A DNA stretch of 64,000 nucleotides from the NCBI GenBank assembly GCA_964016885.1, contig OZ024743.1, forward strand, positions 249,612,001-249,676,000. The letters are read 5' to 3'. Numbering within the stretch: the stretch's first letter is position 1; the number at the start of each line of letters is the position of its first letter. The position numbers and the translations under genes are program-made. Source of the stretch: Eledone cirrhosa. Its lineage: Eukaryota. Under the pieces are notes generated by a model. That model was not told where the DNA came from. It saw nothing but the letters and a program-made list of their open reading frames with translations, and did no database searches. Positions 3,001 to 50,021 of this stretch are shown piece after piece.

Positions 3001-5918
3001 CGTTCAGCGCATCGGTAGGGGTTCTCCTACATGGATATAAAGTAGTGGCCGTACTCGAAAACGAGTTGGCAGCCACCATGTATGTATGTATGTATGTATG
3101 TATGTATGTATGTATGTATGTATGTATGTATGTATGTATGTATGTATGTATGTATGTATGTATGTATGTATGTTATGTATGTTATGTCAGGTCACCAGTT
3201 GGTGCTACTGGTAACATGTATCCCAGTACAACCTGTCCCATGGTCGGGTCGTTGGCGACTAAACTGGCAAACCCACCAAGGTTTCTTGGTGAGGAGGGTG
3301 ACTTTGGACATCCTGCAGGACTAAAAACAAAACCTGTCAAAGGGCAAAGGAGCTCTTAAGAGTCAATGGCCATCCAAAATCACCGGGAGAGATGACCCCT
3401 TAGCCTTTGTCAAGGCAGAATTCTAGGAGAAGGAAAACTCTGATATAACACCTGCAACCCTGATGGTATCCAATGATGTTGACTTGTTCTTCTTTTTGGT
3501 AAATATCATCTTGGTTAAGAGAGTGGGACTGGCTTTGTGCAGTGCCTTTGCTCACTATAAAAGCTTCACGGCACAGGCATTGCTTTATATCTGGAGATCT
3601 CTCTGCACTTGTCGTCACATGGTACCATGGGCCCAGCACTATGTGTCAGTAATTGTCACAAGTGTAGTGTTTGTACCAGAGTTTTCAAGTCACTGGCTGG
3701 ACTAAAAAGTCACACTCGTTCAGCGCATCGGTAGGGGTTCTCCTACATGGATATAAAGTAGTGGCCGTACTCGAAAACGAGTTGGCAGCCACCATGTATG
3801 TATGTATGTATGTATGTATGTATGTATGTATGTATGTATGTATGTATGTATGTATGTATGTATGTATGTATGTATGTATGTATGTATGTTATGTATGTTA
3901 TGTATGTTATGTCAGGTCACCAGTTGGTGCTACTGGTAACATGTATCCCAGTACAACCTGTCCCATGGTCGGGTCGTTGGCGACTAAACTGGCAAACCCA
4001 CCAAGGTTTCTTGGTGAGGAGGGTGACTTTGGACATCCTGCAGGACTAAAAACAAAACCTGTCAAAGGGCAAAGGAGCTCTTAAGAGTCAATGGCCATCC
4101 AAAATCACCGGGAGAGATGACCCCTTAGCCTTTGTCAAGGCAGAATTCTAGGAGAAGGAAAACTCTGATATAACACCTGCAACCCTGATGGTATCCAATG
4201 ATGTTGACTTGTTCTTCTTTTTGGTAAATATCATCTTGGTTAAGAGAGTGGGACTGGCTTTGTGCAGTGCCTTTGCTCACTATAAAAGCTTCACGGCACA
4301 GGCATTGCTTTATATCTGGAGATCTCTCTGCACTTGTCGTCACATGGTACCATGGGCCCAGCACTATGTGTCAGTAATTGTCACAAGTGTAGTGTTTGTA
4401 CCAGAGTTTTCAAGTCACTGGCTGGACTAAAAAGTCACACTCGTTCAGCGCATCGGTAGGGGTTCTCCTACATGGATATAAAGTAGTGGCCGTACTCGAA
4501 AACGAGTTGGCAGCCACCATGTATGTATGTATGTATGTATGTATGTATGTATGTATGTATGTATGTATGTATGTATGTATGTTATGTATGTTATGTCAGG
4601 TCACCAGTTGGTGCTACTGGTAACATGTATCCCAGTACAACCTGTCCCATGGTCGGGTCGTTGGCGACTAAACTGGCAAACCCACCAAGGTTTCTTGGTG
4701 AGGAGGGTGACTTTGGACATCCTGCAGGACTAAAAACAAAACCTGTCAAAGGGCAAAGGAGCTCTTAAGAGTCAATGGCCATCCAAAATCACCGGGAGAG
4801 ATGACCCCTTAGCCTTTGTCAAGGCAGAATTCTAGGAGAAGGAAAACTCTGATATAACACCTGCAACCCTGATGGTATCCAATGATGTTGACTTGTTCTT
4901 CTTTTTGGTAAATATCATCTTGGTTAAGAGAGTGGGACTGGCTTTGTGCAGTGCCTTTGCTCACTATAAAAGCTTCACGGCACAGGCATTGCTTTATATC
5001 TGGAGATCTCTCTGCACTTGTCGTCACATGGTACCATGGGCCCAGCACTATGTGTCAGTAATTGTCACAAGTGTAGTGTTTGTACCAGAGTTTTCAAGTC
5101 ACTGGCTGGACTAAAAAGTCACACTCGTTCAGCGCATCGGTAGGGGTTCTCCTACATGGATATAAAGTAGTGGCCGTACTCGAAAACGAGTTGGCAGCCA
5201 CCATGTATGTATGTATGTATGTATGTATGTATGTATGTATGTATGTATGTATGTATGTATGTATGTATGTATGTATGTATGTATGTATGTATGTATGTTA
5301 TGTATGTTATGTCAGGTCACCAGTTGGTGCTACTGGTAACATGTATCCCAGTACAACCTGTCCCATGGTCGGGTCGTTGGCGACTAAACTGGCAAACCCA
5401 CCAAGGTTTCTTGGTGAGGAGGGTGACTTTGGACATCCTGCAGGACTAAAAACAAAACCTGTCAAAGGGCAAAGGAGCTCTTAAGAGTCAATGGCCATCC
5501 AAAATCACCGGGAGAGATGACCCCTTAGCCTTTGTCAAGGCAGAATTCTAGGAGAAGGAAAACTCTGATATAACACCTGCAACCCTGATGGTATCCAATG
5601 ATGTTGACTTGTTCTTCTTTTTGGTAAATATCATCTTGGTTAAGAGAGTGGGACTGGCTTTGTGCAGTGCCTTTGCTCACTATAAAAGCTTCACGGCACA
5701 GGCATTGCTTTATATCTGGAGATCTCTCTGCACTTGTCGTCACATGGTACCATGGGCCCAGCACTATGTGTCAGTAATTGTCACAAGTGTAGTGTTTGTA
5801 CCAGAGTTTTCAAGTCACTGGCTGGACTAAAAAGTCACACTCGTTCAGCGCATCGGTAGGGGTTCTCCTACATGGATATAAAGTAGTGGCCGTACTCGAA
5901 AACGAGTTGGCAGCCACC
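1..5918 (+). repeat. Tandem array (~8.4 units, 684-725 bp) of a non-autonomous bipartite RTE-derived element, each unit ending in a (TATG)n tail
   Basis: Identical ORF-track entries recur at 126, 830, 1546, 2271, 2955, 3671, 4396, 5080 and 5796. The unit middle matches the 5' UTR of the RTE LINE at ~7877-8082. The unit end gtggccgtactcgaaaacgagttggcagccaccat matches the LINE 3' end atggccatactcgataacgagggggcagccatcat (~11431-11465). Confidence 0.9.
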
Positions 5919-6611
5919 ATGTATGTATGTATGTATGTATGTATGTATGTATGTATGTATGTATGTATGTATGTATGTATGTATGTATGTATGTATGTAT
6001 GTATGTATGTATGTATGTATGTATGTATGTATGTATGTATGTATGTATGTATGTATGTATGTATGTATGTATGTATGTATGTATGTATGTATGTATGTAT
6101 GTATGTATGTATGTATGTATGTATGTATGTATGTATGTATGTATGTATGTATGTATGTATGTATGTATGTATGTATGTATGTATGTATGTATGTATGTAT
6201 GTATGTATGTATGTATGTATGTATGTATGTATGTATGTATGTATGTATGTATGTATGTATGTATGTATGTATGTATGTATGTATGTATGTATGTATGTAT
6301 GTATGTATGTATGTATGTATGTATGTATGTATGTATGTATGTATGTATGTATGTATGTATGTATGTATGTATGTATGTATGTATGTATGTATGTATGTAT
6401 GTATGTATGTATGTATGTATGTATGTATGTATGTATGTATGTATGTATGTATGTATGTATGTATGTATGTATGTATGTATGTATGTATGTATGTATGTAT
6501 GTATGTATGTATGTATGTATGTATGTATGTATGTATGTATGTATGTATGTATGTATGTATGTATGTATGTATGTATGTATGTATGTATGTATGTATGTAT
6601 GTATGTATGTA
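5919..6611 (+). repeat. Pure (TATG)n microsatellite, ~690 bp, tail of the last array unit
   Basis: Directly visible; the MYVC/HTYI ORFs are artefacts of it. Confidence 0.97.
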
Positions 6612-8149: not shown

Positions 8150-8334
8150 TACTTTTTTCTTTTTTTTTCCCCAATTCAATGATGTTCTAGAACAATGTAA
8201 AAGAGATAATTGGCAATTTAGGTTCTGGAACAAAAAAGATCATTGGCAATAAGGGCAGGGGCCCCAAGTTATCACAACCTGGGCCCGCTCGTCATCGTGC
8301 CATTGTAATAGAGCCAAACAAGGCATTTAGTCTT

Positions 8335-9255
8335 GGCTGCTGGAACGTACGGACGCTGCTTGACAGGGATTCCTTGGAGCGTCCTGAACGAAGGACCGCT
8401 CTTGTTGCAAAGGAGCTTCGACGTTACGATCTTGACATCGTGGCTTTATCTGAGACGAGGTTAGCTGGAGATGGTCATCTTACGGAATTTTGTGGAGAAT
8501 ATACATTCTTCTGGAAAGGAAGAGATGAAGGAACCAGAAGAGAGGCTGGGGTAGGATTTGCTGTTAAGACTGTACTTGTCAATAAATTAGAAGAATTCCC
8601 AGTAGGGATTAGTGAGCGTCTTATGTCCATGAGAGTTCCGCTGGACAGAGGAAGATATGCTACCCTGGTGAGTGTGTATGCTCCAACTACGAATTCTGTC
8701 GATGAAGAAAAACTGTCCTTTTACCATGCCTTGAAAGGTGTTCTAAGAAATATCCCTCAGGCAGACAAAGTCATCGTGGTTGGTGACTTTAATGCTAGAG
8801 TGGGTAGGGATTTTAACACATGGAATGTAATCGGAAGGCATGGGGTGGGAAAGTGTAACAGCAATGGTATGCTCCTGCTGCAGATGTGTGAGGAGCTGGA
8901 TCTGTGTGTTACCAACACCATGTTCCAACAAAAGAACAAATTCAAGACCACATGGATGCATCCTGCATCTAAGGAATGGCATCTTTTGGACTACGTCCTA
9001 GTCAGGATGCGTGACAGACAGGATGTGCAGTGTGTTCGTGTTCTTCGTGGAGCTGAGTGCTGGACGGACCACCGCCTAGTACGCGCAAAAGTGAAACTAA
9101 TCACCAAACGTAAAATCCGGGCTCCTGGTGTTACCCTGCCCAAAAGATTGAATGCTGCTCGTCTTAAGGATAAAAATGTGAAGAGGACATTGGAAGAAGA
9201 GATGCAGGCTGCAGATCTTGGTGAGGATTGGCCGACCCTTAAAAAGTCGGTTTAA
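8335..9255 (+). pseudogene. RTE LINE AP-endonuclease domain
   Basis: ORF 8374-9255 with canonical APE motifs; an in-frame stop separates it from the RT portion. Confidence 0.9.
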
Positions 9256-9279
9256 GATGTAGGCAGGCGTGTTCTGGGA

Positions 9280-10344
9280 TTGGTGCAGAGAAAACATCAG
9301 GACTGGTTTAATGAGAATGATGTACATATAGAAGACTTGTTGGCTGATAAGAGGCGTGCTCTGTCACGCTACTTGACGGCAAAACCACAGGAGAGGAATA
9401 CGTTGCATGAGGAGCTCAGGGATGTAAAATCACGTGTTAGGCGGAGTCTTTCTCAGATGAAGGATCAGTGGTGGAGTGAGAAGGCTGGTGAGATACAAAC
9501 TGCGTCTGATTCCAATAACACAAAGCTGTTGTACAGTCTCTTGCGTGAGGTTTATGGACCGTCTTCTTCTCTGGTGACACCGCTTCGCAGCAAGGATGGC
9601 AAAGAACTTCTTCGTGACTCACAGGGAATTCTACGAAGGTGGCGAGAGCACTTTGATGATCTTTTGAATCAGCCGTCTGTCGTCAGTGAAGATTTCCTCA
9701 ATCTCATTCCAGAAAGTCCTGTGAAAGTAGCTCTCGCAGAACCTCCGACGCTTGTGGAGGTTGCAGTGGCTATTTCGAAGCTGAACAGTGGAAGATCTCC
9801 ATGTATGGATGGCATACATGCTGAGCTCCTACAATATGGTGGTGAGAGACTCCTGCAACATCTGCACTCTTTGTTTGGAAGGATATGGGCTAATGAATCC
9901 GTACCTGAGGACTGGAGAGATGCAGTAATGGTGGTCTTGTACAAGGGAAAGGGTAACAGGAATGATTGTGGGAACTACAGAGGTATATCATTGCTTTCTG
10001 TCGTAAGGAAAGTTTTATGTAGGGTGCTTCTGGACCGTCTGCTGACACACATTGCAGATTGTGTTCTTCCTGAAAGTCAATCTGGTTTTCGTGCTGGACG
10101 CGGCACTACTGATATGATCTTCTCAGCTAGACAGCTCCAGGAGAAGTGCATGGAACAAGGCTTGGATCTGTATCAGGTTTTTGTCGATCTGACAAAGGCT
10201 TTCGATACTGTCAACAGAGAGGCATTATGGAAGGTTCTCCAGAAACTTGGTTGCCCTGATAAGTTCCTTGCTTTAGTTAGGTCTTTCCATGACGACATGA
10301 AGGCTTGGGTTAATGTTGGAGGTAACATGTCGACACCACCTTAA
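9280..10344 (+). pseudogene. RTE LINE reverse transcriptase, N-terminal half; catalytic YADD region deleted
   Basis: RT motifs present up to FHDDMKAWV, then deletion/frameshift. Confidence 0.9.
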
Positions 10345-15277: not shown

Positions 15278-15329
<52 letters not shown>

Positions 15330-15331
<2 letters not shown>

Positions 15332-17527
15332 CAAGGTTTAGCAAATAATGAAAAAGTTTCAAAATAAATTTTAAAAAATTGACTTTACCTACTATAGTTA
15401 CCTTTACCGATCGGTTTCGAATCCCAAAAATAAACGGAGACCATACGGCCTTCGTTGCAAAGAAAGATTCTCGTCAGAAGGTTCTTTTCATTCGAAGAAT
15501 ATAAAATTCTTGAATTTAAATTACGAACTAGCGCTATCCAAAACTGTTCCTGAGATGAGAGTGAATGAAGTGGAATCAATTTTTTCAAGGGCCGAAGTAA
15601 AGATAGAGGCAGAGGGAGGTAGGTCAAACCGGCCGCAACTATCACTAGCAGCAGTCGGAACAACCCAATTTGTCTCTCAACAATAGCGGAGAGTAGTAAT
15701 AATAGGATATGTGTTCCTTCACGCATAAGGCGCTAAGGGACGCATGTATTGTCCAACCAAATGCCAATGTGGTTCAATGGCAGGTTAATAAATTAACGAG
15801 CCAGAACATATATAAACAAGGTTTAGCAAATAATGAAAAAGTTTCAAAATAAATTTTAAAAAATTGACTTTACCTACTATAGTTACCTTTACCGATCGGT
15901 TTCGAATCCCAAAAATAAACGGAGACCATACGGCCTTCGTTGCAAAGAAAGATTCTCGTCAGAAGGTTCTTTTCATTCGAAGAATATAAAATTCTTGAAT
16001 TTAAATTACGAACTAGCGCTATCCAAAACTGTTCCTGAGATGAGAGTGAATGAAGTGGAATCAATTTTTTCAAGGGCCGAAGTAAAGATAGAGGCAGAGG
16101 GAGGTAGGTCAAACCGGCCGCAACTATCACTAGCAGCAGTCGGAACAACCCAATTTGTCTCTCAACAATAGCGGAGAGTAGTAATAATAGGATATGTGTT
16201 CCTTCACGCATAAGGCGCTAAGGGACGCATGTATTGTCCAACCAAATGCCAATGTGGTTCAATGGCAGGTTAATAAATTAACGAGCCAGAACATATATAA
16301 ACAAGGTTTAGCAAATAATGAAAAAGTTTCAAAATAAATTTTAAAAAATTGACTTTACCTACTATAGTTACCTTTACCGATCGGTTTCGAATCCCAAAAA
16401 TAAACGGAGACCATACGGCCTTCGTTGCAAAGAAAGATTCTCGTCAGAAGGTTCTTTTCATTCGAAGAATATAAAATTCTTGAATTTAAATTACGAACTA
16501 GCGCTATCCAAAACTGTTCCTGAGATGAGAGTGAATGAAGTGGAATCAATTTTTTCAAGGGCCGAAGTAAAGATAGAGGCAGAGGGAGGTAGGTCAAACC
16601 GGCCGCAACTATCACTAGCAGCAGTCGGAACAACCCAATTTGTCTCTCAACAATAGCGGAGAGTAGTAATAATAGGATATGTGTTCCTTCACGCATAAGG
16701 CGCTAAGGGACGCATGTATTGTCCAACCAAATGCCAATGTGGTTCAATGGCAGGTTAATAAATTAACGAGCCAGAACATATATAAACAAGGTTTAGCAAA
16801 TAATGAAAAAGTTTCAAAATAAATTTTAAAAAATTGACTTTACCTACTATAGTTACCTTTACCGATCGGTTTCGAATCCCAAAAATAAACGGAGACCATA
16901 CGGCCTTCGTTGCAAAGAAAGATTCTCGTCAGAAGGTTCTTTTCATTCGAAGAATATAAAATTCTTGAATTTAAATTACGAACTAGCGCTATCCAAAACT
17001 GTTCCTGAGATGAGAGTGAATGAAGTGGAATCAATTTTTTCAAGGGCCGAAGTAAAGATAGAGGCAGAGGGAGGTAGGTCAAACCGGCCGCAACTATCAC
17101 TAGCAGCAGTCGGAACAACCCAATTTGTCTCTCAACAATAGCGGAGAGTAGTAATAATAGGATATGTGTTCCTTCACGCATAAGGCGCTAAGGGACGCAT
17201 GTATTGTCCAACCAAATGCCAATGTGGTTCAATGGCAGGTTAATAAATTAACGAGCCAGAACATATATAGACAAGGTTTAGCAAATAATGAAAAAGTTTC
17301 AAAATAAATTTTAAAAAATTGACTTTACCTACTATAGTTACCTTTACCGATCGGTTTCGAATCCCAAAAATAAACGGAGACCATACGGCCTTCGTTGCAA
17401 AGAAAGATTCTCGTCAGAAGGTTCTTTTCATTCGAAGAATATAAAATTCTTGAATTTAAATTACGAACTAGCGCTATCCAAAACTGTTCCTGAGATGAGA
17501 GTGAATGAAGTGGAATCAATTTTTTCA
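15330..17527 (-). repeat. Left (antisense) arm of inverted 485 bp hammerhead concatemer, ~4.5 units
   Basis: Period 485 (ORF track 15385, 15870, 16355, 16840, 17325). Begins directly after (TA)n. Hammerheads on the minus strand at 15400-15482 and every 485 bp. Confidence 0.95.
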
Positions 17528-19575
17528 TATATGTTCTGGCTCGTTAATTTATTAACCTGCCATTGAACCACATTGGCATTTGGTTGGACAATACATGCGT
17601 CCCTTAGCGCCTTATGCGTGAAGGAACACATATCCTATTATTACTACTCTCCGCTATTGTTGAGAGACAAATTGGGTTGTTCCGACTGCTGCTAGTGATA
17701 GTTGCGGCCGGTTTGACCTACCTCCCTCTGCCTCTATCTTTACTTCGGCCCTTGAAAAAATTGATTCCACTTCATTCACTCTCATCTCAGGAACAGTTTT
17801 GGATAGCGCTAGTTCGTAATTTAAATTCAAGAATTTTATATTCTTCGAATGAAAAGAACCTTCTGACGAGAATCTTTCTTTGCAACGAAGGCCGTATGGT
17901 CTCCGTTTATTTTTGGGATTCGAAACCGATCGGTAAAGGTAACTATAGTAGGTAAAGTCAATTTTTTAAAATTTATTTTGAAACTTTTTCATTATTTGCT
18001 AAACCTTGTTTATATATGTTCTGGCTCGTTAATTTATTAACCTGCCATTGAACCACATTGGCATTTGGTTGGACAATACATGCGTCCCTTAGCGCCTTAT
18101 GCGTGAAGGAACACATATCCTATTATTACTACTCTCCGCTATTGTTGAGAGACAAATTGGGTTGTTCCGACTGCTGCTAGTGATAGTTGCGGCCGGTTTG
18201 ACCTACCTCCCTCTGCCTCTATCTTTACTTCGGCCCTTGAAAAAATTGATTCCACTTCATTCACTCTCATCTCAGGAACAGTTTTGGATAGCGCTAGTTC
18301 GTAATTTAAATTCAAGAATTTTATATTCTTCGAATGAAAAGAACCTTCTGACGAGAATCTTTCTTTGCAACGAAGGCCGTATGGTCTCCGTTTATTTTTG
18401 GGATTCGAAACCGATCGGTAAAGGTAACTATAGTAGGTAAAGTCAATTTTTTAAAATTTATTTTGAAACTTTTTCATTATTTGCTAAACCTTGTTTATAT
18501 ATGTTCTGGCTCGTTAATTTATTAACCTGCCATTGAACCACATTGGCATTTGGTTGGACAATACATGCGTCCCTTAGCGCCTTATGCGTGAAGGAACACA
18601 TATCCTATTATTACTACTCTCCGCTATTGTTGAGAGACAAATTGGGTTGTTCCGACTGCTGCTAGTGATAGTTGCGGCCGGTTTGACCTACCTCCCTCTG
18701 CCTCTATCTTTACTTCGGCCCTTGAAAAAATTGATTCCACTTCATTCACTCTCATCTCAGGAACAGTTTTGGATAGCGCTAGTTCGTAATTTAAATTCAA
18801 GAATTTTATATTCTTCGAATGAAAAGAACCTTCTGACGAGAATCTTTCTTTGCAACGAAGGCCGTATGGTCTCCGTTTACTTTTGGGATTCGAAACCGAT
18901 CGGTAAAGGTAACTATAGTAGGTAAAGTCAATTTTTTAAAATTTATTTTGAAACTTTTTCATTATCTGCTAAACCTTGTTTATATATGTTCTGGCTCGTT
19001 AACTTATTAACCTGCCATTGAACCACATTGGCATTTGGTTGGACAATACATGCGTCCCTTAGCGCCTTATGCGTGAAGGAACACATATCCTATTATTACT
19101 ACTCTCCGCTATTGTTGAGAGACAAATTGGGTTGTTCCGACTGCTGCTAGTGATAGTTGCGGCCGGTTTGACCTACCTCCCTCTGCCTCTATCTTTACTT
19201 CGGCCCTTGAAAAAATTGATTCCACTTCATTCACTCTCATCTCAGGAACAGTTTTGGATAGCGCTAGTTCGTAATTTAAATTCAAGAATTTTATATTCTT
19301 CGAATGAAAAGAACCTTCTGACGAGAATCTTTCTTTGCAACGAAGGCCGTATGGTCTCCGTTTATTTTTGGGATTCGAAACCGATCGGTAAAGGTAACTA
19401 TAGTAGGTAAAGTCAATTTTTTAAAATTTATTTTGAAACTTTTTCATTATTTGCTAAACCTTGTTTATATATGTTCTGGCTCGTTAATTTATTAACCTGC
19501 CATTGAACCACATTGGCATTTGGTTGGACAATACATGCGTCCCTTAGCGCCTTATGCGTGAAGGAACACATATCC

Positions 19576-19580
<5 letters not shown>
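17527..19580 (+). repeat. Right (sense) arm of inverted 485 bp hammerhead concatemer, ~4.2 units
   Basis: Reverse complement of the left-arm unit (ORF track 17614, 18099, 18584, 19069); ends in (TA)n. Confidence 0.95.
17858..17940 (+). ncRNA. Type I hammerhead ribozyme (representative of 9 copies in the 485 bp array)
   Basis: ACCTT-CTGACGA-GAATCT...GGATTC-GAAA-C-CGATCG-GTA|AAGGT. Palindromic stem III ACCGATCGGT; predicted cleavage after 17935. Confidence 0.85.
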
Positions 19581-19614
<34 letters not shown>

Positions 19615-22413: not shown

Positions 22414-23406
22414 AAGACAATAAATTTACTTTATATGATTTTTATTCAAACGTCTATGTTTTATTTTTTGTTTATTTGATATAATAAATACTTTTTAAGC
22501 TTATTTTTTTTTTATATCTGAACTTCATTTGAATATATAAAATTTAATTAGCGTAAAGAAATTTTTACTTATGTGATAGGGTTCAGGAAAGACACCATAA
22601 GTAATACTAAAATGCTCCAACAAATGTTGCTTTGTCCCCCTTACATTTTTAAGGCAAACGAGGCCCCTGGAAAAGAGCAACATTATTCACTGACCCGTTC
22701 ATCACCGTGATCGGCTTGACCTCGATACTTCAGCTCATTCTTACTAACATTCAGTTTGCTTGACCCCATCTTATCTTCATTGCATTTCCACATCATTTAT
22801 TCTATAGCTAGGTTGTTGCTATTCCTATATAAACTGACTGTTTATACTACGATCAAGTCTTGTTATAGCCTTGCGTTTAAGGAAGTGCTTTTGTAGTCTT
22901 CAACAGTCATCTATTATAATTGCAGCACCATTACAAGAATATCACAGTGATGCATTAAGTTAAGGGCGATAATTTGAGTAACTCTGACTAATAAATAATG
23001 TCTTAACTTAGTATTATCGTGTCTTATCACTACGTGCTTAATTGATGAATTCCATTTCAAAATAGCACATTACTAGTCATTCTTGCATTAAGTTCTCTTG
23101 AACTCGTTGCCTCGTTGATCCTTTCTTGAGTCTGCCACCTTAATTCCCTCAAGCTAAGTTATTACTATCATACATGAAAGACTGGTTAATCTTCATATAT
23201 AACTTGTCTCAACTTGGTTAATTAATGACAGTATTTGTCTTTTTCATTGCAGTTTTGTTTATTACAAAGTGTTATTCCAGAACATTACTTGAAACTTTAT
23301 CATACTGGAACAGGACTCATTATAGTAAGTTCCTTATACATAATTTTATAGGCTTATATAGGCAAATCTTTGCGTAACTTTACCAAACACATTCGCTAAA
23401 CAGAAA

Positions 23407-25194
23407 ATGGCCTCAGCAATGAAGAAAAAATGTAGGCAGTACAGCGTTGATTACTTACGGTTCGGATTCATCCCATCGCCGTCGAACCACCTGTCACCCA
23501 TGTGTTTAATTTGCAAGGAGTCCTTTTCGAATGAGGCGATGAAGCCATCGCGTTTCAGTAGACACTTGGAGGTGAGGCACCCCGATAAGAGATATAAAGA
23601 TTTAGCATACTTTCAGTCTCTTAGGGACCAATTCCAGAAAACAACACTAATTTCTTCTGCCTTTTCAAAAGTTGAAGCTTCAAATGTTGATGGACTTGTC
23701 GCATCTTACAATATTGCCAACATAATCGCAAAGTGCGGCAAGCCCCATTCCTTGTGTGAAACATTGGTAGTCCCTGTCATCTCAGAAGTTCTTTCAACAG
23801 TACTACGACAGAACCCCTTAAATACCTTGAAATGTATTCCGTTGAGTAACGACTCAATAAGGAGACGCATCGACGAAATGGCGGAAAATGTTGAACAACA
23901 ATTATGCAACATCTTGAAATCGACACAATTTGCTTTGCAACTTGATGAAAGCACACTTTCCGGGAATCAGTCCTTACTACTGGGATACGTGCGATTTTCC
24001 CACCAAAACGAAATGCACGAGGAGCTTCTCTTCACTCTGAATCTAGCCACAGATACTAAAGGTGCCACGATCTTTGAATCTGTCAAGGGATACCTCGAAG
24101 TAAAAGAGATACCTCTTAACAATATTGTATCATGTGCTACGGACGGCGCAAGAGCAATGGTCGGCCAACATAAGGGTTTCGTCTCTCTTCTGACGAGGGA
24201 AAATCCATCTGTATTTGCTGTTCATTGTGTCATTCATCGACAACACTTGGCTACGAAGAAACTCAGCGAGCCGCTGAGCAAGTCTTTGCAGGTAGTCATT
24301 GATGTCATCAATTATATCAAACGCCATGCCCTCAATGAACGAATTTTCCGGCAACTGTGCGAAGATAATGACGAAGAATTCGTCGAGTTGCTTCTTCATA
24401 CTGAAGTGAGGTGGCTTTCAAAGGGCAAGTGCCTTACTCGCTTCTTTAAACTGTTCGACTCTATCATTGAGTTTCTTCGAGGACGCAACACAGAACTATA
24501 TAAAAAAAACCTCGATGTGAGGCAAGACTGTGCCTACCTCGCCGACATCTTTGACAAATGCAATAGTCTCATTATGGCTTTGCAGGGGGAGAAGATCACC
24601 TTGTTTAAAGCAAGGAATGCTGTGAAAATATTCCTGGCCAAATTGAAAGTCATCGAAAGGAATCTTTGTCGACGGGAATTCTATAATTTTCCTAGTGTCG
24701 CCAATGTTTCAAACATTGTAAGCGATGACCAACTGCAAATTTATACCGCGCACCTCCGTGCACTACAAGACAACACGAGAGAACGGTTTGTCGACCTTTT
24801 GCAGATGGACATCCCAATGTGGATAGCAGATCCCTTCATAGCCAACGTCGATGATCTCGACGTTAAATTTCAGGAAGAATTAATTGAACTTCAGACAGAT
24901 GACATTATCAAAAGGAAATTTTCCAAAATAGGTGAACCCCTTTTTTGGATGCAAGAGGAAATTCAGCGACGATTTCCACTTCTACATGCAGAGGCTAAGA
25001 GATTTGCTTTGCCTTTTCCTAGCTCATACTTAGTCGAGAGGGGGTTTGGCGTTGTTTCCAGACTGCATAGTAAGGCTCGCAACCGCTAGAATGTGATTGC
25101 ACGTGGAGATCTCCGGCTACAGCTCACAAAAATCCAGCCTGACGTCAAAGAGTTAGCTAAACTCCATGACCATGAAGCTGAAGGGTCCCATTGA
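23407..25194 (+). pseudogene. hAT (Buster/Charlie, ZBED5/SCAND3-like) transposase with one premature stop at 25087
   Basis: BED-like CLIC..H..H, LQLDEST, CATDGA, HCVIHRQHL, HTEVRWLSKG and SSYLVERGF. Read-through gives ..RGDLRLQLTKIQPDVKELAKLHDHEAEGSH* ending at 25194. Confidence 0.9.
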
Positions 25195-34554: not shown

Positions 34555-34912
34555 ACACACACACACACACACACACTTATATATATATGCATATATATAT
34601 ATGTATATATATATAGTTTTGCGAGGTTTTTTATATGAAATCGTGTGTCGAAACAGATATTGTTATATTTGGGGAGGGTCATATTTGCGTAATATTGCCA
34701 GAATTAATAACAGAACACACTCACTGTTTGGTTGGTTTTCGCTTCTCGCTGTCTTTTATATATATATATCTGCGATCTAACTTACTCGGTAAGTTAGATC
34801 GCAGATATATATATATAGACTTACCTACGACACTGACTACCTAGACAGCCATGACCTTAGATGTTTCTGCCCTAGTAGACCTATAAGAGGTAGACCCCCC
34901 ACCATAACCTCA

Positions 34913-36364
34913 ATGGCTAAAAAGACTCCCATAGGAAGGTGGATTGGGTGGACCAAAGCTATACGGACCCCCCAAAACACTGATCAGGTAAGAAAAATGG
35001 TCGCACATGCAATAGGGGCTAGTATCAAAACTACCCTAAAGGGCCACATATTTAAGTTCAATGAGAAAATCTACACCCAAAATGAGGGAGCAGCCATCGG
35101 CGTCAGCATACCTGGCGATGTTGCCAACCTTTTCATGGTATGGTGGGAAAGGAGACTTAAAGATCTCCTTAATGAAAGCTCCATAGACCTCATCATGTAC
35201 TCTCGTTATGTAGACGATATCAATATAGTTATAAGAACACCCCCACTAGAGAGCACTAACAAGTTTGATTTAGAACGTAGCACGATGGAAAGCATCCAGC
35301 AGATAGCTAATTCCATACACCAGAGTATAACTGTAACTATAGACTTCCCTTCCAAACACCCTAACAATAGACTACCTGTATTAGACACAGAACTCTGGAT
35401 TAACACTATAGACGAGAGAGCCCAAATTCTCCACTCACACTATGCTAAACCCATGGCCTCCAAATACCTGATACTCAAAAACTCAGCAATGTCCAGTAGT
35501 GCTAAGTTTAATATTCTGATCGCAGATTTGGTACGAGTGATGAAGAATGTGTCCAGCATGTGCGACCCAACAGAAATGGAAGGACACATCCAACACTTCA
35601 TCAACCGCATGCAGTTCTCTGGCTACAACCAAAGAGACAGAGTCAGAGTATACGAAGGAGCCATGGAAAAGTATAAGACCCTCATAGAACTGGACATGAA
35701 AGGAATTTGCCCACTATACAGGAGCAAATCATGGAATAGCTTAGATAGGGCTAGACATAAGATAGGGAAGGCCACATCATGGTACGACAACCAGAGATAT
35801 CAGAGTGTCATGTTTGTGGACGCCACCCCTGGAGGGAAATTAGCTAACCAGTGTAGAAAGGCCCTGAGAAAGACCCACTTAAAAATAAAGGTGGTAGAAA
35901 AGCCAGGAACCACCATAAAATCCCTGATCAGCAAAACCTACCCTTTTAAGAAAACCCACTGTACCAATAGGAAATGTATCATATGTAAGGTGAACCCCCG
36001 GATAAACTGTAAAACTAGAAACGTAGTCTATAGCATAAGATGTACAGAGGGTACTTGCAGAAACACGACAACAACATACATAGGTGAGACAGCTCGTAGC
36101 ATAGGTGAAAGGATAGACCAACACTGGGGGGAACTAAAAGGACGAAAAAACGGGTCAGTACTATACGAACATGCTAGACAACATCATGACGGTAACATAG
36201 ACAACATAGAAATTAGAATAATATCTAAACATAGGAATGACCCAGCAGATAGGCAAATCAGAGAGGCCAGTGAAATAGAAATTAGAAGACCAAAGCTAAA
36301 CAGAAAGAATGAGTGGAACAACAACAACACCCAAACAAACAACACTGACCTAAGAGAAGTATAA
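34913..36364 (+). CDS. Penelope-like RT (C-terminal half), Cys linker and GIY-YIG endonuclease; 483 aa uninterrupted
   Basis: FKFNEKIYTQNEGAAIG, RYVDDI, LPVLD, HYAKP, C-x4-C-x2-C linker, NVVYSIRC...YIGETARSIGERIDQH...REASEI...LN. Neptune versus Naiad subclade not resolved. Confidence 0.88.
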   Translation: MAKKTPIGRWIGWTKAIRTPQNTDQVRKMVAHAIGASIKTTLKGHIFKFNEKIYTQNEGAAIGVSIPGDVANLFMVWWERRLKDLLNESSIDLIMYSRYVDDINIVIRTPPLESTNKFDLERSTMESIQQIANSIHQSITVTIDFPSKHPNNRLPVLDTELWINTIDERAQILHSHYAKPMASKYLILKNSAMSSSAKFNILIADLVRVMKNVSSMCDPTEMEGHIQHFINRMQFSGYNQRDRVRVYEGAMEKYKTLIELDMKGICPLYRSKSWNSLDRARHKIGKATSWYDNQRYQSVMFVDATPGGKLANQCRKALRKTHLKIKVVEKPGTTIKSLISKTYPFKKTHCTNRKCIICKVNPRINCKTRNVVYSIRCTEGTCRNTTTTYIGETARSIGERIDQHWGELKGRKNGSVLYEHARQHHDGNIDNIEIRIISKHRNDPADRQIREASEIEIRRPKLNRKNEWNNNNTQTNNTDLREV

Positions 36365-36636
36365 ATAAATAAGTAAATTAAATTAAATAAAATAAGATAA
36401 ATAAATACATACACAAGCACATAAACACACACTAGTCACCCAGCAGACACAACACTATACACACTAGTCACACATCACACATAACACTATACACACACGC
36501 AAACGCATGCGCAAAGAAGACAAAATAAAATAAGATAAACAAACAAGCAAATAAATAAAAAAATATATAGACAGACTGAACAAAAAAAATGGCGTAGACA
36601 TACAACACAACAGGAGGAACAATGAATATAACACCA

Positions 36637-36680
36637 CTGACGATGTTGCAGATGTGCAACGAAAGATTTATGTAAACTAT
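36637..36680 (+). ncRNA. Possible hammerhead core in the 3' UTR of the Penelope-like element
   Basis: CTGACGA-T-GTTGCA-GATG-TGCAAC-GAAA; stem II is perfect, stems I and III are ambiguous. Confidence 0.45.
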
Positions 36681-36904
36681 ATATATATGTGTTTGTCTAT
36701 ATTGTATCTGTATTATTTTTGACCGCCGGTCAGTCAATGGCAACATTGAGGACCGAGTAAGTTAGATCGCAGATATATATATATAAAAGACAGCGAGAAG
36801 CGAAAACCAACCAAACAGTGAGTGTGTTCTGTTATTAATTCTGGCAATATTACGCAAATATGACCCTCCCCAAATATAACAATATATATATATATGTATA
36901 TATA

Positions 36905-41212: not shown

Positions 41213-41238
<26 letters not shown>

Positions 41239-41246
<8 letters not shown>

Positions 41247-44200
41247 AATAACGAAACGAAATTAAATTTCGTTTCGTTTGTAACTCACTTTTGTATGACT
41301 GACGCTTAAACAATTAAGTTAAAGATGTACATCCATATATGTATACTGAAATACTAGTATGTATATGAATACACACACGTATACATATGTAGATGTACCA
41401 AGTTTTTTCACTGGTCACTTTACTGTGAGTGGCCAGCTATTCTGTATGTAAACACACAGACAAACCGGTTTTTAGAGTCATACTGGTTTTTGAGGAAACA
41501 CCTTTCCTCTATTCTCCAGAAAGCCAGACAAGGAATATTGAACTAGTTTCGTTGTTGTTACAACTCATCAGCAATATTTACCTATCTTCCGGCCTCTCTA
41601 GAGAATCGTAAAAGCACATATCGTTATATGCTTTTTCTATGAAAATTAGTAGTGGGCAGACTAACTTGCATAGAGTGTGAGTAAGTACCGGTTCAACGGA
41701 GACGATAAAAACAAATAACGAAACGAAATTAAATTTCGTTTCGTTTGTAACTCACTTTTGTATGACTGACGCTTAAACAATTAAGTTAAAGATGTACATC
41801 CATATATGTATACTGAAATACTAGTATGTATATGAATACACACACGTATACATATGTAGATGTACCAAGTTTTTTCACTGGTCACTTTACTGTGAGTGGC
41901 CAGCTATTCTGTATGTAAACACACAGACAAACCGGTTTTTAGAGTCATACTGGTTTTTGAGGAAACACCTTTCCTCTATTCTCCAGAAAGCCAGACAAGG
42001 AATATTGAACTAGTTTCGTTGTTGTTACAACTCATCAGCAATATTTACCTATCTTCCGGCCTCTCTAGAGAATCGTAAAAGCACATATCGTTATATGCTT
42101 TTTCTATGAAAATTAGTAGTGGGCAGACTAACTTGCATAGAGTGTGAGTAAGTACCGGTTCAACGGAGACGATAAAAACAAATAACGAAACGAAATTAAA
42201 TTTCGTTTCGTTTGTAACTCACTTTTGTATGACTGACGCTTAAACAATTAAGTTAAAGATGTACATCCATATATGTATACTGAAATACTAGTATGTATAT
42301 GAATACACACACGTATACATATGTAGATGTACCAAGTTTTTTCACTGGTCACTTTACTGTGAGTGGCCAGCTATTCTGTATGTAAACACACAGACAAACC
42401 GGTTTTTAGAGTCATACTGGTTTTTGAGGAAACACCTTTCCTCTATTCTCCAGAAAGCCAGACAAGGAATATTGAACTAGTTTCGTTGTTGTTACAACTC
42501 ATCAGCAATATTTACCTATCTTCCGGCCTCTCTAGAGAATCGTAAAAGCACATATCGTTATATGCTTTTTCTATGAAAATTAGTAGTGGGCAGACTAACT
42601 TGCATAGAGTGTGAGTAAGTACCGGTTCAACGGAGACGATAAAAACAAATAACGAAACGAAATTAAATTTCGTTTCGTTTGTAACTCACTTTTGTATGAC
42701 TGACGCTTAAACAATTAAGTTAAAGATGTACATCCATATATGTATACTGAAATACTAGTATGTATATGAATACACACACGTATACATATGTAGATGTACC
42801 AAGTTTTTTCACTGGTCACTTTACTGTGAGTGGCCAGCTATTCTGTATGTAAACACACAGACAAACCGGTTTTTAGAGTCATACTGGTTTTTGAGGAAAC
42901 ACCTTTCCTCTATTCTCCAGAAAGCCAGACAAGGAATATTGAACTAGTTTCGTTGTTGTTACAACTCATCAGCAATATTTACCTATCTTCCGGCCTCTCT
43001 AGAGAATCGTAAAAGCACATATCGTTATATGCTTTTTCTATGAAAATTAGTAGTGGGCAGACTAACTTGCATAGAGTGTGAGTAAGTACCGGTTCAACGG
43101 AGACGATAAAAACAAATAACGAAACGAAATTAAATTTCGTTTCGTTTGTAACTCACTTTTGTATGACTGACGCTTAAACAATTAAGTTAAAGATGTACAT
43201 CCATATATGTATACTGAAATACTAGTATGTATATGAATACACACACGTATACATATGTAGATGTACCAAGTTTTTTCACTGGTCACTTTACTGTGAGTGG
43301 CCAGCTATTCTGTATGTAAACACACAGACAAACCGGTTTTTAGAGTCATACTGGTTTTTGAGGAAACACCTTTCCTCTATTCTCCAGAAAGCCAGACAAG
43401 GAATATTGAACTAGTTTCGTTGTTGTTACAACTCATCAGCAATATTTACCTATCTTCCGGCCTCTCTAGAGAATCGTAAAAGCACATATCGTTATATGCT
43501 TTTTCTATGAAAATTAGTAGTGGGCAGACTAACTTGCATAGAGTGTGAGTAAGTACCGGTTCAACGGAGACGATAAAAACAAATAACGAAACGAAATTAA
43601 ATTTCGTTTCGTTTGTAACTCACTTTTGTATGACTGACGCTTAAACAATTAAGTTAAAGATGTACATCCATATATGTATACTGAAATACTAGTATGTATA
43701 TGAATACACACACGTATACATATGTAGATGTACCAAGTTTTTTCACTGGTCACTTTACTGTGAGTGGCCAGCTATTCTGTATGTAAACACACAGACAAAC
43801 CGGTTTTTAGAGTCATACTGGTTTTTGAGGAAACACCTTTCCTCTATTCTCCAGAAAGCCAGACAAGGAATATTGAACTAGTTTCGTTGTTGTTACAACT
43901 CATCAGCAATATTTACCTATCTTCCGGCCTCTCTAGAGAATCGTAAAAGCACATATCGTTATATGCTTTTTCTATGAAAATTAGTAGTGGGCAGACTAAC
44001 TTGCATAGAGTGTGAGTAAGTACCGGTTCAACGGAGACGATAAAAACAAATAACGAAACGAAATTAAATTTCGTTTCGTTTGTAACTCACTTTTGTATGA
44101 CTGACGCTTAAACAATTAAGTTAAAGATGTACATCCATATATGTATACTGAAATACTAGTATGTATATGAATACACACACGTATACATATGTAGATGTAC

Positions 44201-47200
44201 CAAGTTTTTTCACTGGTCACTTTACTGTGAGTGGCCAGCTATTCTGTATGTAAACACACAGACAAACCGGTTTTTAGAGTCATACTGGTTTTTGAGGAAA
44301 CACCTTTCCTCTATTCTCCAGAAAGCCAGACAAGGAATATTGAACTAGTTTCGTTGTTGTTACAACTCATCAGCAATATTTACCTATCTTCCGGCCTCTC
44401 TAGAGAATCGTAAAAGCACATATCGTTATATGCTTTTTCTATGAAAATTAGTAGTGGGCAGACTAACTTGCATAGAGTGTGAGTAAGTACCGGTTCAACG
44501 GAGACGATAAAAACAAATAACGAAACGAAATTAAATTTCGTTTCGTTTGTAACTCACTTTTGTATGACTGACGCTTAAACAATTAAGTTAAAGATGTACA
44601 TCCATATATGTATACTGAAATACTAGTATGTATATGAATACACACACGTATACATATGTAGATGTACCAAGTTTTTTCACTGGTCACTTTACTGTGAGTG
44701 GCCAGCTATTCTGTATGTAAACACACAGACAAACCGGTTTTTAGAGTCATACTGGTTTTTGAGGAAACACCTTTCCTCTATTCTCCAGAAAGCCAGACAA
44801 GGAATATTGAACTAGTTTCGTTGTTGTTACAACTCATCAGCAATATTTACCTATCTTCCGGCCTCTTTAGAGAATCGTAAAAGCACATATCGTTATATGC
44901 TTTTTCTATGAAAATTAGTAGTGGGCAGACTAACTTGCATAGAGTGTGAGTAAGTACCGGTTCAACGGAGACGATAAAAACAAATAACGAAACGAAATTA
45001 AATTTCGTTTCGTTTGTAACTCACTTTTGTATGACTGACGCTTAAACAATTAAGTTAAAGATGTACATCCATATATGTATACTGAAATACTAGTATGTAT
45101 ATGAATACACACACGTATACATATGTAGATGTACCAAGTTTTTTCACTGGTCACTTTACTGTGAGTGGCCAGCTATTCTGTATGTAAACACACAGACAAA
45201 CCGGTTTTTAGAGTCATACTGGTTTTTGAGGAAACACCTTTCCTCTATTCTCCAGAAAGCCAGACAAGGAATATTGAACTAGTTTCGTTGTTGTTACAAC
45301 TCATCAGCAATATTTACCTATCTTCCGGCCTCTCTAGAGAATCGTAAAAGCACATATCGTTATATGCTTTTTCTATGAAAATTAGTAGTGGGCAGACTAA
45401 CTTGCATAGAGTGTGAGTAAGTACCGGTTCAACGGAGACGATAAAAACAAATAACGAAACGAAATTAAATTTCGTTTCGTTTGTAACTCACTTTTGTATG
45501 ACTGACGCTTAAACAATTAAGTTAAAGATGTACATCCATATATGTATACTGAAATACTAGTATGTATATGAATACACACACGTATACATATGTAGATGTA
45601 CCAAGTTTTTTCACTGGTCACTTTACTGTGAGTGGCCAGCTATTCTGTATGTAAACACACAGACAAACCGGTTTTTAGAGTCATACTGGTTTTTGAGGAA
45701 ACACCTTTCCTCTATTCTCCAGAAAGCCAGACAAGGAATATTGAACTAGTTTCGTTGTTGTTACAACTCATCAGCAATATTTACCTATCTTCCGGCCTCT
45801 CTAGAGAATCGTAAAAGCACATATCGTTATATGCTTTTTCTATGAAAATTAGTAGTGGGCAGACTAACTTGCATAGAGTGTGAGTAAGTACCGGTTCAAC
45901 GGAGACGATAAAAACAAATAACGAAACGAAATTAAATTTCGTTTCGTTTGTAACTCACTTTTGTATGACTGACGCTTAAACAATTAAGTTAAAGATGTAC
46001 ATCCATATATGTATACTGAAATACTAGTATGTATATGAATACACACACGTATACATATGTAGATGTACCAAGTTTTTTCACTGGTCACTTTACTGTGAGT
46101 GGCCAGCTATTCTGTATGTAAACACACAGACAAACCGGTTTTTAGAGTCATACTGGTTTTTGAGGAAACACCTTTCCTCTATTCTCCAGAAAGCCAGACA
46201 AGGAATATTGAACTAGTTTCGTTGTTGTTACAACTCATCAGCAATATTTACCTATCTTCCGGCCTCTCTAGAGAATCGTAAAAGCACATATCGTTATATG
46301 CTTTTTCTATGAAAATTAGTAGTGGGCAGACTAACTTGCATAGAGTGTGAGTAAGTACCGGTTCAACGGAGACGATAAAAACAAATAACGAAACGAAATT
46401 AAATTTCGTTTCGTTTGTAACTCACTTTTGTATGACTGACGCTTAAACAATTAAGTTAAAGATGTACATCCATATATGTATACTGAAATATTAGTATGTA
46501 TATGAATACACACACGTATACATATGTAGATGTACCAAGTTTTTTCACTGGTCACTTTACTGTGAGTGGCCAGCTATTCTGTATGTAAACACACAGACAA
46601 ACCGGTTTTTAGAGTCATACTGGTTTTTGAGGAAACACCTTTCCTCTATTCTCCAGAAAGCCAGACAAGGAATATTGAACTAGTTTCGTTGTTGTTACAA
46701 CTCATCAGCAATATTTACCTATCTTCCGGCCTCTCTAGAGAATCGTAAAAGCACATATCGTTATATGCTTTTTCTATGAAAATTAGTAGTGGGCAGACTA
46801 ACTTGCATAGAGTGTGAGTAAGTACCGGTTCAACGGAGACGATAAAAACAAATAACGAAACGAAATTAAATTTCGTTTCGTTTGTAACTCACTTTTGTAT
46901 GACTGACGCTTAAACAATTAAGTTAAAGATGTACATCCATATATGTATACTGAAATACTAGTATGTATATGAATACACACACGTATACATATGTAGATGT
47001 ACCAAGTTTTTTCACTGGTCACTTTACTGTGAGTGGCCAGCTATTCTGTATGTAAACACACAGACAAACCGGTTTTTAGAGTCATACTGGTTTTTGAGGA
47101 AACACCTTTCCTCTATTCTCCAGAAAGCCAGACAAGGAATATTGAACTAGTTTCGTTGTTGTTACAACTCATCAGCAATATTTACCTATCTTCCGGCCTC

Positions 47201-47611
47201 TCTAGAGAATCGTAAAAGCACATATCGTTATATGCTTTTTCTATGAAAATTAGTAGTGGGCAGACTAACTTGCATAGAGTGTGAGTAAGTACCGGTTCAA
47301 CGGAGACGATAAAAACAAATAACGAAACGAAATTAAATTTCGTTTCGTTTGTAACTCACTTTTGTATGACTGACGCTTAAACAATTAAGTTAAAGATGTA
47401 CATCCATATATGTATACTGAAATACTAGTATGTATATGAATACACACACGTATACATATGTAGATGTACCAAGTTTTTTCACTGGTCACTTTACTGTGAG
47501 TGGCCAGCTATTCTGTATGTAAACACACAGACAAACCGGTTTTTAGAGTCATACTGGTTTTTGAGGAAACACCTTTCCTCTATTCTCCAGAAAGCCAGAC
47601 AAGGAATATTG
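41239..47611 (-). repeat. Left (antisense) arm of inverted 467 bp hammerhead concatemer, ~13.6 units
   Basis: Period 467 (ORF track 41429 to 47500). Starts after (TA)n. Hammerheads on the minus strand at 41534-41578 and every 467 bp. Confidence 0.96.
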
Positions 47612-49952
47612 AATTGTTTAAGCGTCAGTCATACAAAAGTGAGTTACAAACGAAACGAAATTTAATTTCGTTTCGTTATTTGTTTTTATCGTCTCCGTTG
47701 AACCGGTACTTACTCACACTCTATGCAAGTTAGTCTGCCCACTACTAATTTTCATAGAAAAAGCATATAACGATATGTGCTTTTACGATTCTCTAGAGAG
47801 GCCGGAAGATAGGTAAATATTGCTGATGAGTTGTAACAACAACGAAACTAGTTCAATATTCCTTGTCTGGCTTTCTGGAGAATAGAGGAAAGGTGTTTCC
47901 TCAAAAACCAGTATGACTCTAAAAACCGGTTTGTCTGTGTGTTTACATACAGAATAGCTGGCCACTCACAGTAAAGTGACCAGTGAAAAAACTTGGTACA
48001 TCTACATATGTATACGTGTGTGTATTCATATACATACTAGTATTTCAGTATACATATATGGATGTACATCTTTAACTTAATTGTTTAAGCGTCAGTCATA
48101 CAAAAGTGAGTTACAAACGAAACGAAATTTAATTTCGTTTCGTTATTTGTTTTTATCGTCTCCGTTGAACCGGTACTTACTCACACTCTATGCAAGTTAG
48201 TCTGCCCACTACTAATTTTCATAGAAAAAGCATATAACGATATGTGCTTTTACGATTCTCTAGAGAGGCCGGAAGATAGGTAAATATTGCTGATGAGTTG
48301 TAACAACAACGAAACTAGTTCAATATTCCTTGTCTGGCTTTCTGGAGAATAGAGGAAAGGTGTTTCCTCAAAAACCAGTATGACTCTAAAAACCGGTTTG
48401 TCTGTGTGTTTACATACAGAATAGCTGGCCACTCACAGTAAAGTGACCAGTGAAAAAACTTGGTACATCTACATATGTATACGTGTGTGTATTCATATAC
48501 ATACTAGTATTTCAGTATACATATATGGATGTACATCTTTAACTTAATTGTTTAAGCGTCAGTCATACAAAAGTGAGTTACAAACGAAACGAAATTTAAT
48601 TTCGTTTCGTTATTTGTTTTTATCGTCTCCGTTGAACCGGTACTTACTCACACTCTATGCAAGTTAGTCTGCCCACTACTAATTTTCATAGAAAAAGCAT
48701 ATAACGATATGTGCTTTTACGATTCTCTAGAGAGGCCGGAAGATAGGTAAATATTGCTGATGAGTTGTAACAACAACGAAACTAGTTCAATATTCCTTGT
48801 CTGGCTTTCTGGAGAATAGAGGAAAGGTGTTTCCTCAAAAACCAGTATGACTCTAAAAACCGGTTTGTCTGTGTGTTTACATACAGAATAGCTGGCCACT
48901 CACAGTAAAGTGACCAGTGAAAAAACTTGGTACATCTACATATGTATACGTGTGTGTATTCATATACATACTAGTATTTCAGTATACATATATGGATGTA
49001 CATCTTTAACTTAATTGTTTAAGCGTCAGTCATACAAAAGTGAGTTACAAACGAAACGAAATTTAATTTCGTTTCGTTATTTGTTTTTATCGTCTCCGTT
49101 GAACCGGTACTTACTCACACTCTATGCAAGTTAGTCTGCCCACTACTAATTTTCATAGAAAAAGCATATAACGATATGTGCTTTTACGATTCTCTAGAGA
49201 GGCCGGAAGATAGGTAAATATTGCTGATGAGTTGTAACAACAACGAAACTAGTTCAATATTCCTTGTCTGGCTTTCTGGAGAATAGAGGAAAGGTGTTTC
49301 CTCAAAAACCAGTATGACTCTAAAAACCGGTTTGTCTGTGTGTTTACATACAGAATAGCTGGCCACTCACAGTAAAGTGACCAGTGAAAAAACTTGGTAC
49401 ATCTACATATGTATACGTGTGTGTATTCATATACATACTAGTATTTCAGTATACATATATGGATGTACATCTTTAACTTAATTGTTTAAGCGTCAGTCAT
49501 ACAAAAGTGAGTTACAAACGAAACGAAATTTAATTTCGTTTCGTTATTTGTTTTTATCGTCTCCGTTGAACCGGTACTTACTCACACTCTATGCAAGTTA
49601 GTCTGCCCACTACTAATTTTCATAGAAAAAGCATATAACGATATGTGCTTTTACGATTCTCTAGAGAGGCCGGAAGATAGGTAAATATTGCTGATGAGTT
49701 GTAACAACAACGAAACTAGTTCAATATTCCTTGTCTGGCTTTCTGGAGAATAGAGGAAAGGTGTTTCCTCAAAAACCAGTATGACTCTAAAAACCGGTTT
49801 GTCTGTGTGTTTACATACAGAATAGCTGGCCACTCACAGTAAAGTGACCAGTGAAAAAACTTGGTACATCTACATATGTATACGTGTGTGTATTCATATA
49901 CATACTAGTATTTCAGTATACATATATGGATGTACATCTTTAACTTAATTGT
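47612..49952 (+). repeat. Right (sense) arm of inverted 467 bp hammerhead concatemer, 5.0 units
   Basis: Reverse complement of the left unit. AATTGT at 47612 and at 49947 (5 x 467 apart). Ends in (TA)n. Confidence 0.96.
47816..47860 (+). ncRNA. Minimal type I hammerhead ribozyme (representative of 18 complete copies in the 467 bp array)
   Basis: AATATTG-CTGATGA-GTTG-TAACAA-CAAC-GAAA-C-TA-GTT|CAATATT. Palindromic stem III ACTAGT; predicted cleavage after 47853. Confidence 0.88.
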
Positions 49953-49959
49953 ATATATA

Positions 49960-50021
<62 letters not shown>

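What the first reader, a model, noticed from the sequence alone, without database searches (positions are those of the whole stretch)
41239..49952. 8.7 kb inverted array of a 467 bp unit, each with a minimal hammerhead
13.6 units in one orientation then 5.0 in the other, nearly identical and TA-flanked at both ends. Each unit holds AATATTG-CTGATGA-GTTG/CAAC-GAAAC-TA-GTT|CAATATT plus further strong hairpins (aacgaaacgaaatt/aatttcgtttcgtt, aaaagc..gctttt, gtatac..gtatac), as expected of a structured circular RNA. The near identity implies a very recent single event. The repeated 60 aa ORF is antisense to the ribozyme and probably incidental.
Basis: partly seen in the sequence, partly recalled or inferred. 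Interest (0 to 1): 0.85.

Follow-up and report, generated by a model that had tools for sequence, protein, structure and literature searches.

The report
Two-armed retrozyme with Penelope hybrids
This is one young copy of a non-coding repeat with a hammerhead-ribozyme motif that sits at over a thousand places in this animal genome as two back-to-back arms with fixed, staggered ends; a Penelope-type jumping-gene enzyme likely wrote both arms from one small RNA, probably a circle, and a few hybrid copies point to the likely enzyme supplier.

Summary
The array is as described: 13.65 + 5.0 units of 467 bp, head to head, in (TA)n, with 18 type I hammerhead cores. It is one insertion of a large family: 5,170 exact ribozyme 31-mers, about 1,450 loci. 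Across 120 genomic stretches, all 86 two-armed copies point outward, and 77 of 84 complete ones end at unit position ~303 on one side and ~230 on the other. Autonomous Penelope-like elements (PLEs) here show the same footprint. Arms read through the cleavage site (129 of 157), and both arms share one locus haplotype (5 differences in 9,170 sites). Three of 124 insertions (two clean, one ambiguous) have an arm of one PLE family. Verdict: an animal non-LTR retrozyme, likely inserted by twin-primed PLE reverse transcription of an RNA circle. RNA, cleavage and circles were not shown, and some arms grew later by DNA duplication. The class and the PLE link are published as a hypothesis. This scan found the same pattern earlier in other repeat families of this genome.

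The parts
41213..41238 (.). (TA)13 target microsatellite, left
41239..47613 (-). left arm, 13.65 units; outer end at unit position 302/303 (unit position 1 = window 47854, the base after GUU); inner end at the predicted cleavage site
47612..47613 (.). head-to-head junction, 2-nt overlap (AA)
47612..49952 (+). right arm, 5.0 units; outer end at unit position ~231
49953..50021 (.). TA run then (TAT)n, right target
47816..47860 (+). one of 18 type I hammerhead motifs; predicted cut after 47853 (GUU|C); palindromic helix III ACTAGT suited to a dimeric fold
48082..48156 (+). the ~70-nt 'tail' between the two fixed end points (unit ~229-303), holding a 13-bp hairpin at 48115-48144 and a T5 run just before 303
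48189..48200 (+). motif like the element at about -78 of the host's U6 genes (1 mismatch here; exact in 24 of 32 aligned units); candidate internal promoter element, untested
41896..42078 (+). 60-aa GTG-started frame antisense to the ribozyme, repeated per unit; treated as incidental

Best explanation
The array is one insertion of a non-coding hammerhead repeat (a non-LTR retrozyme) that a Penelope-like reverse transcriptase/GIY-YIG endonuclease likely pasted into a (TA)n run by priming two cDNAs, one from each cut strand, on one likely circular RNA monomer. Shown: the family, the outward two-arm layout, the two fixed ends, shared haplotypes and hybrid copies. Inferred steps: (1) an array is transcribed, cut to 467-nt monomers by dimeric hammerheads and ligated to circles; (2) the PLE protein, probably as a dimer, cuts both strands of the TA run; (3) one subunit starts at unit position ~303 and the other at ~230; (4) each runs a variable distance round the template; (5) the two cDNA ends are joined over 0-5 nt of homology. 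The window's arms would be ~13.6 and 5 turns, though later block duplication may have added units. The best candidate supplier is PLE family 'C' (reference L163; 784-aa RT-EN frame).
For: Geometry: 86 of 86 two-armed copies are minus-then-plus; 77 of 84 complete ones pair a ~303 end with a ~230 end and none repeats the same end; 11 of 13 in the set chosen without regard to ends. 197 of 202 canonical ends abut a TA run. There are 1,869 exact TA+303 junctions genome-wide, also seen in short-read contigs, which show 10 different minus-to-plus joints. Autonomous PLEs here have the same layout with staggers of 68 nt (family A), 41 nt (family C) and ~40 nt (the window's own PLE). In vitro a PLE cuts and extends both strands and starts at two internal sites bounding the tail (PMC11167929, main text read). 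Template: 129 of 157 arms pass the cleavage site; inner ends do not pile up there (11 of 172, 7.4 expected); 469 of 475 crossings are clean. Both arms agree at all but 5 of 9,170 sites in 24 loci, against 3-39 differences per locus to the median other locus. 40 of 67 locus-specific fixed variants lie in both arms. Hybrids: L081 and L101 join a repeat arm to PLE-C sequence with no TA between, and L049 does so ambiguously; each PLE-C arm ends at one of its own fixed ends and no PLE-C lies on the other side. Selection on fold: 7 of 135 pairs change on both sides.
Against: No RNA, cleavage or circle was observed. Periodic variants confined to one arm in C1b, L035, L072, L102 and L188 show DNA-level block duplication also lengthens arms, so long arms alone do not prove rolling-circle copying. 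Shared haplotypes could come from two RNAs of one donor locus. Only 28 of 120 stretches could be chosen without regard to ends or high identity, of which 19 form the end-blind set; 78 were chosen by the 303 end. Hybrids are 3 of 124 insertions and could be later deletions; the PLE library was partial (A, B, C, D and the window's PLE). The unit has no sequence similarity to PLE terminal repeats, PLE-C has no hammerhead by pattern search, and its stagger (41 nt) differs from the repeat's (~70 nt). A second family with the same footprint has no detectable ribozyme, so the hammerhead may not be needed for insertion; PMC11167929 also found cleavage dispensable in vitro. The youngest subfamily has GUU rather than GUC; that GUU cuts less well is recalled. 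Eight of nine predicted Xenopus retrozyme dimers did not cleave in vitro (10.64898/2026.07.22.740005).
Confidence: 0.72

Rival explanations
1. Same PLE twin priming, but on an uncut linear multimer transcript of a donor array; arm length is restored by DNA-level tandem duplication and no circle is involved.
For: Reading through the cleavage site and clean crossings fit this equally. Block duplication is real. PMC11167929 reports unprocessed RNA as the main in vitro substrate. The 485-bp family has the footprint without a detected ribozyme.
Against: Donor single-unit mutations should be inherited as mixed arrays mirrored in both arms: only 8 of 259 minor variants occur in both arms. Eight long loci have no minor variant at all, and some of them carry their own fixed variants in every unit, e.g. 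two in 19 of 19 units in C1a and two in 15-16 units in L044. Length does not rise with age (rho -0.04, n 70). The ribozyme and a long helix enclosing it are conserved.
Confidence: 0.18
2. One cDNA is primed at the target and the inverted arm arises by fold-back self-priming or a switch to an antisense template, as hypothesised for PLE inversions (PMC3846280).
For: Small fold-back palindromes occur at some junctions, e.g. L101. It explains shared haplotypes.
Against: It does not explain why the second arm ends at a different fixed point, why inner ends of the two arms are usually at unrelated unit positions, or the hybrids with a PLE arm. 14 of 35 apparent single arms carry a stub ending at the other fixed site.
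Confidence: 0.06
3. DNA-level satellite or foldback element, or long-read assembly artefact; the hammerhead is a relic.
For: Palindromic arrays can be assembly artefacts (general knowledge); arms do change at the DNA level.
Against: Fixed ends, more than a thousand dispersed loci, covariation, and the same junction types in short-read contigs; a 10-12 bp target duplication at a non-TA site (L050).
Confidence: 0.04

Closest known systems
Metazoan non-LTR retrozymes (Cervera and de la Pena 2020, PMC7229834: abstract, section 14, Discussion, passages; review PMC7761336: passages; Li, Clavereau and Pollet 2026, 10.64898/2026.07.22.740005: parts 1-3 of 5)
   Same: Non-coding tandem unit, GC about 35%, one type I hammerhead per unit, thousands of copies, strongly self-paired monomer, PLEs in the same genome. 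Those papers propose circles copied into multimers by a PLE or other RT.
   Different: The unit (467 nt) is slightly above the 170-400 nt RNAs of PMC7229834 but within the preprint's 51-972 bp. In what I read, no two-armed layout, fixed staggered ends or retrozyme-PLE hybrids are described ('inverted' has 0 hits in PMC7229834). The preprint derives Xenopus retrozymes from pLTRs; this unit shows no pLTR similarity.
EN+ Penelope-like elements (Craig 2021 PMC8557442, passages; Frangieh 2024 PMC11167929, main text; Arkhipova 2013 PMC3846280, passages)
   Same: Head-to-head inverted 5'-truncated copy, a tail at one end only, AT/TA microsatellite targets, two internal RT start sites, both-strand extension.
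   Different: No ORF. The tail is ~70 nt against the 30-40 nt reported. Frangieh saw no difference in start site between strands, whereas here the two arms of a locus almost always use different sites. Arms are many units long.

Membership tests
non-LTR retrozyme | tandem non-coding unit of a few hundred bp, GC below 50%, no LTR/PBS/PPT layout | tested here: met
non-LTR retrozyme | type I hammerhead in each unit with conserved core | tested here: met
   Rfam score below the gathering cut-off
non-LTR retrozyme | dispersed multi-copy, mobile | tested here: met
non-LTR retrozyme | highly self-paired monomer | tested here: met
   predicted only: z -10.0; 7 covarying pairs (rows are related, so the shuffle count is no probability)
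non-LTR retrozyme | self-cleavage and accumulation as linear and circular RNA | not testable with these tools
   no RNA holder listed
non-LTR retrozyme (Li 2026 origin claim) | sequence derived from a PLE pLTR | tested here: not met
   no similarity beyond 20-nt simple repeats to five PLE references; library incomplete
non-autonomous PLE cargo | inverted arm, tail at one end, microsatellite target | tested here: met
non-autonomous PLE cargo | intact partner PLE present and physically linked | tested here: inconclusive
   about 30 of 97 scored PLE-C matches lie in a 784-aa open frame; 2 clean and 1 ambiguous hybrid
autonomous PLE | encodes RT and GIY-YIG | tested here: not met
   no such ORF in the array

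The most novel reading that the evidence does not exclude
These arrays are fossil records of a dimeric Penelope enzyme loading at two fixed sites on a single ribozyme-made RNA circle and rolling round it from both ends of a DNA break. PLE family C is the named partner, swapping between its own mRNA and the circle in mid-synthesis. The circle may carry its own U6-type promoter element and A-to-I edits that become fixed in the genome.
Probability: 0.35. Interest if true: 0.8.

Novelty: new variant of a known kind. Interest (0 to 1): 0.58.

Why it matters
Which enzyme moves animal retrozymes, whether circles are the template, and how PLE inversions and tails arise are stated as open in the papers read. 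This family supplies a defined RNA, two predicted start sites to the nucleotide, a target (TA)n and a candidate intact enzyme, so all three can be tested in the existing in vitro PLE assay. A telomerase-related RT making multi-turn cDNA from a circle at both ends of a break would also interest people who build RNA-templated insertion tools.

Tried and rejected
RNA evidence: no RNA holder listed; the six runs are contigs of unknown kind. One run under another organism label holds a 497-nt contig (467+30), which a circle or a tandem array would both give, so it is no evidence. The window's left arm ends at the predicted cut, which first looked like proof of cleavage; across loci there is no clear enrichment (11 of 172 against 7.4). 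Template jumping between linear monomers is not favoured: 469 of 475 crossings are clean. A-to-I footprint: A>G 20 against T>C 11 among locus-fixed variants (p 0.11), 36 against 40 among single-unit variants; 17 against 6 in the both-arm subset, counted by hand after the fact (p 0.02); kept as a lead only. Pol III terminator as the cause of the 303 end: a T5 run lies there, but middle-aged subfamilies have another T5 upstream and keep the 303 end. No pLTR homology. The window's own PLE as partner: one locus (L201) abuts it across a short TA run, read as nested insertion. Isolated 56-nt hammerhead: the MFE is not the catalytic fold, z -1.6. Rows dropped: L090 (duplicate of L089); two pairs cut by stretch edges; arms under 84% identity or 25 nt. 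PLE clade and host taxon were not determined. Literature searches found no paper describing two-armed retrozyme insertions or hybrids; subscription journals are mostly missing and no supplements were read (the life-cycle figure S9 of PMC7229834 and the preprint's tables may bear on this).

Full report
Observation. The window holds a 13.65-unit arm on minus (41239-47613) and a 5.0-unit arm on plus (47612-49952) of a 467-bp unit, joined head to head over 2 nt and set in TA repeats. Only two substitutions exist in 18.7 units. Each unit has a type I hammerhead (Rfam HH9, E 1.1e-7, below gathering) with a 2-bp palindromic helix III, the form that PMC4209133 (passages) says needs a second copy to cleave well. 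The circular monomer folds at z -10.0. Unit positions below count from the base after the predicted cut (window 47854).

Family. The genome (3.0 Gb) has 5,170 exact copies of a 31-nt ribozyme pattern, control 0; the first 100 fall in 28 clusters, so roughly 1,450 loci. There are 1,869 exact junctions of a TA run with unit position 303. Subfamilies reach 12% divergence. Among 32 aligned units the core is invariant, stem II changes U-A to A-U on both sides, the cut triplet is GUC or GUU, and 7 of 135 pairs covary. The rows are related, so this is supportive, not a probability. ATG-started antisense frames over this stretch vary from none to 62 aa among loci, so the ORF is incidental.

Insertion anatomy. 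I analysed 120 stretches: 23 chosen by similarity, 19 by the ribozyme pattern, 78 by the 303 end. All 86 two-armed copies have the RNA 3' ends pointing outward. Of 84 complete pairs, 77 end at ~303 on one side and ~230 on the other, none at the same site twice; the end-blind set gives 11 of 13. Of 35 apparent single-arm inner ends, 14 carry a stub ending at the other site. 197 of 202 canonical ends abut TA; one non-TA site has a 10-12 bp duplication. Inner ends are scattered, and 49 of 86 junctions have 0-5 nt overlap by BLAST. Short-read contigs show the same TA ends and 10 different inversion joints, so this is not a long-read artefact, though those runs may be the same sample.

The Penelope footprint. 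An inverted 5'-truncated copy, a one-sided tail and TA targets are known PLE marks (PMC8557442 passages; PMC3846280 passages). PMC11167929 shows a PLE protein cutting and extending both strands and starting at two internal sites that bound the tail. The genome has young PLEs with the same outward layout and staggers of 68, 41 and ~40 nt. In two family A loci the two arms end at different sites, as in the repeat.

Template. 129 of 157 arms pass the cleavage site, with no clear pile-up there and clean crossings, so the template is a circle or an uncut multimer. The two arms of a locus agree at all but 5 of 9,170 sites, and 40 of 67 locus-specific fixed variants are in both arms. Only 8 of 259 minor variants are shared by both arms. 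This favours a monomer bottleneck at each insertion, which a circle gives. Against: five long loci show periodic variants in one arm only, so duplication after insertion adds units, and two RNAs from one donor would also share a haplotype. I put the circle at about 0.7.

Partner. Of 18 arm ends that are neither canonical nor next to TA, three run into PLE family C. In L081 a 303-arm is followed by 40 nt of repeat and then PLE-C coding sequence that ends at one PLE-C end. In L101 three units run through a small fold-back into the PLE-C terminus. In L049 the join lies in PLE-C's own microsatellite and is ambiguous. These span three repeat subfamilies (88, 94, 98% identity). Families A, B and the window's PLE appear beside the repeat only across TA runs. 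About 30 of 97 scored PLE-C matches have a 784-aa open frame with RT and GIY-YIG similarity. PLE-C has no hammerhead by pattern and no similarity to the unit. I put PLE-C as a supplier at about 0.55; later deletions and unsampled PLE families remain possible.

Promoter lead. Prompted by an earlier scan note, I compared U6 upstream regions: three separate U6 loci share a 12-nt element at about -78. The unit has it at position 336, exact in 24 of 32 units and with one mismatch in the window; shuffles give 0.00045 exact and 0.019 with one mismatch. The pattern was drawn after the fact, lies in a conserved helix, and the TATA-like spacing is 44 against 47-49 nt, so it is a lead.

Comparison and verdict. 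It works like a non-autonomous PLE cargo and meets every sequence-level feature of animal non-LTR retrozymes (PMC7229834; PMC7761336; preprint 10.64898/2026.07.22.740005); the RNA-level features are untested. Those papers propose PLE mobilisation from co-occurrence and pLTR similarity. The two-armed, staggered footprint and hybrids add mechanistic evidence that I did not find in print. Earlier notes of this scan report the same pattern in other families of this genome (a sequence look-up found none for this unit); they are not independent support. New variant of a known kind, interest 0.58.

Noticed in passing
window 15322-19581: Second two-armed array, 485-bp unit (4.55 + 4.25 units) in (TA)n, unrelated in sequence. 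Its family (1,905 first-look candidates) has fixed ends at unit ~478 and ~99-105, a ~109-nt stagger, and locus-fixed variants, but no Rfam hit and only a weak fold (z -2.5/-3.1); a non-canonical CTGACGA...GAAG stretch lies on the sense strand. Possibly ribozyme-free PLE cargo.
   Followed up: partly
window ~34616-36882: Truncated two-armed PLE copy (523-aa RT/GIY-YIG fragment) with a hammerhead motif in its spacer and a ~40-nt tail; many genomic copies at 99% identity have a 1,217-aa open frame with an Asn-rich stretch.
   Followed up: partly
window 1-6611: About eight tandem ~710-bp units ending in (ATGT)n, with a three-unit higher-order period of 2,125 bp, upstream of LINE-like ORFs at 8191-10344.
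   Followed up: no
C1b (L092+L093), L035, L072, L102, L188: Variants repeating every 3-6 units in one arm only: block duplication after insertion.
   Followed up: partly
L195:670-734: A 65-nt GC-rich unrelated piece sits between the two arms, both of which end at unit position 14.
   Followed up: no
runs X4, X5, X6: Near-identical unit sequence in runs under three other coded organism labels and three studies; relatives, mixed samples or transfer were not told apart.
   Followed up: no
G000:C19:31780605-31840331: Tandem array of about 30 U6 snRNA genes at ~1.8-kb spacing.
   Followed up: no
window 23362-25089: 575-aa open frame resembling a hAT-type transposase by eye; not searched.
   Followed up: no
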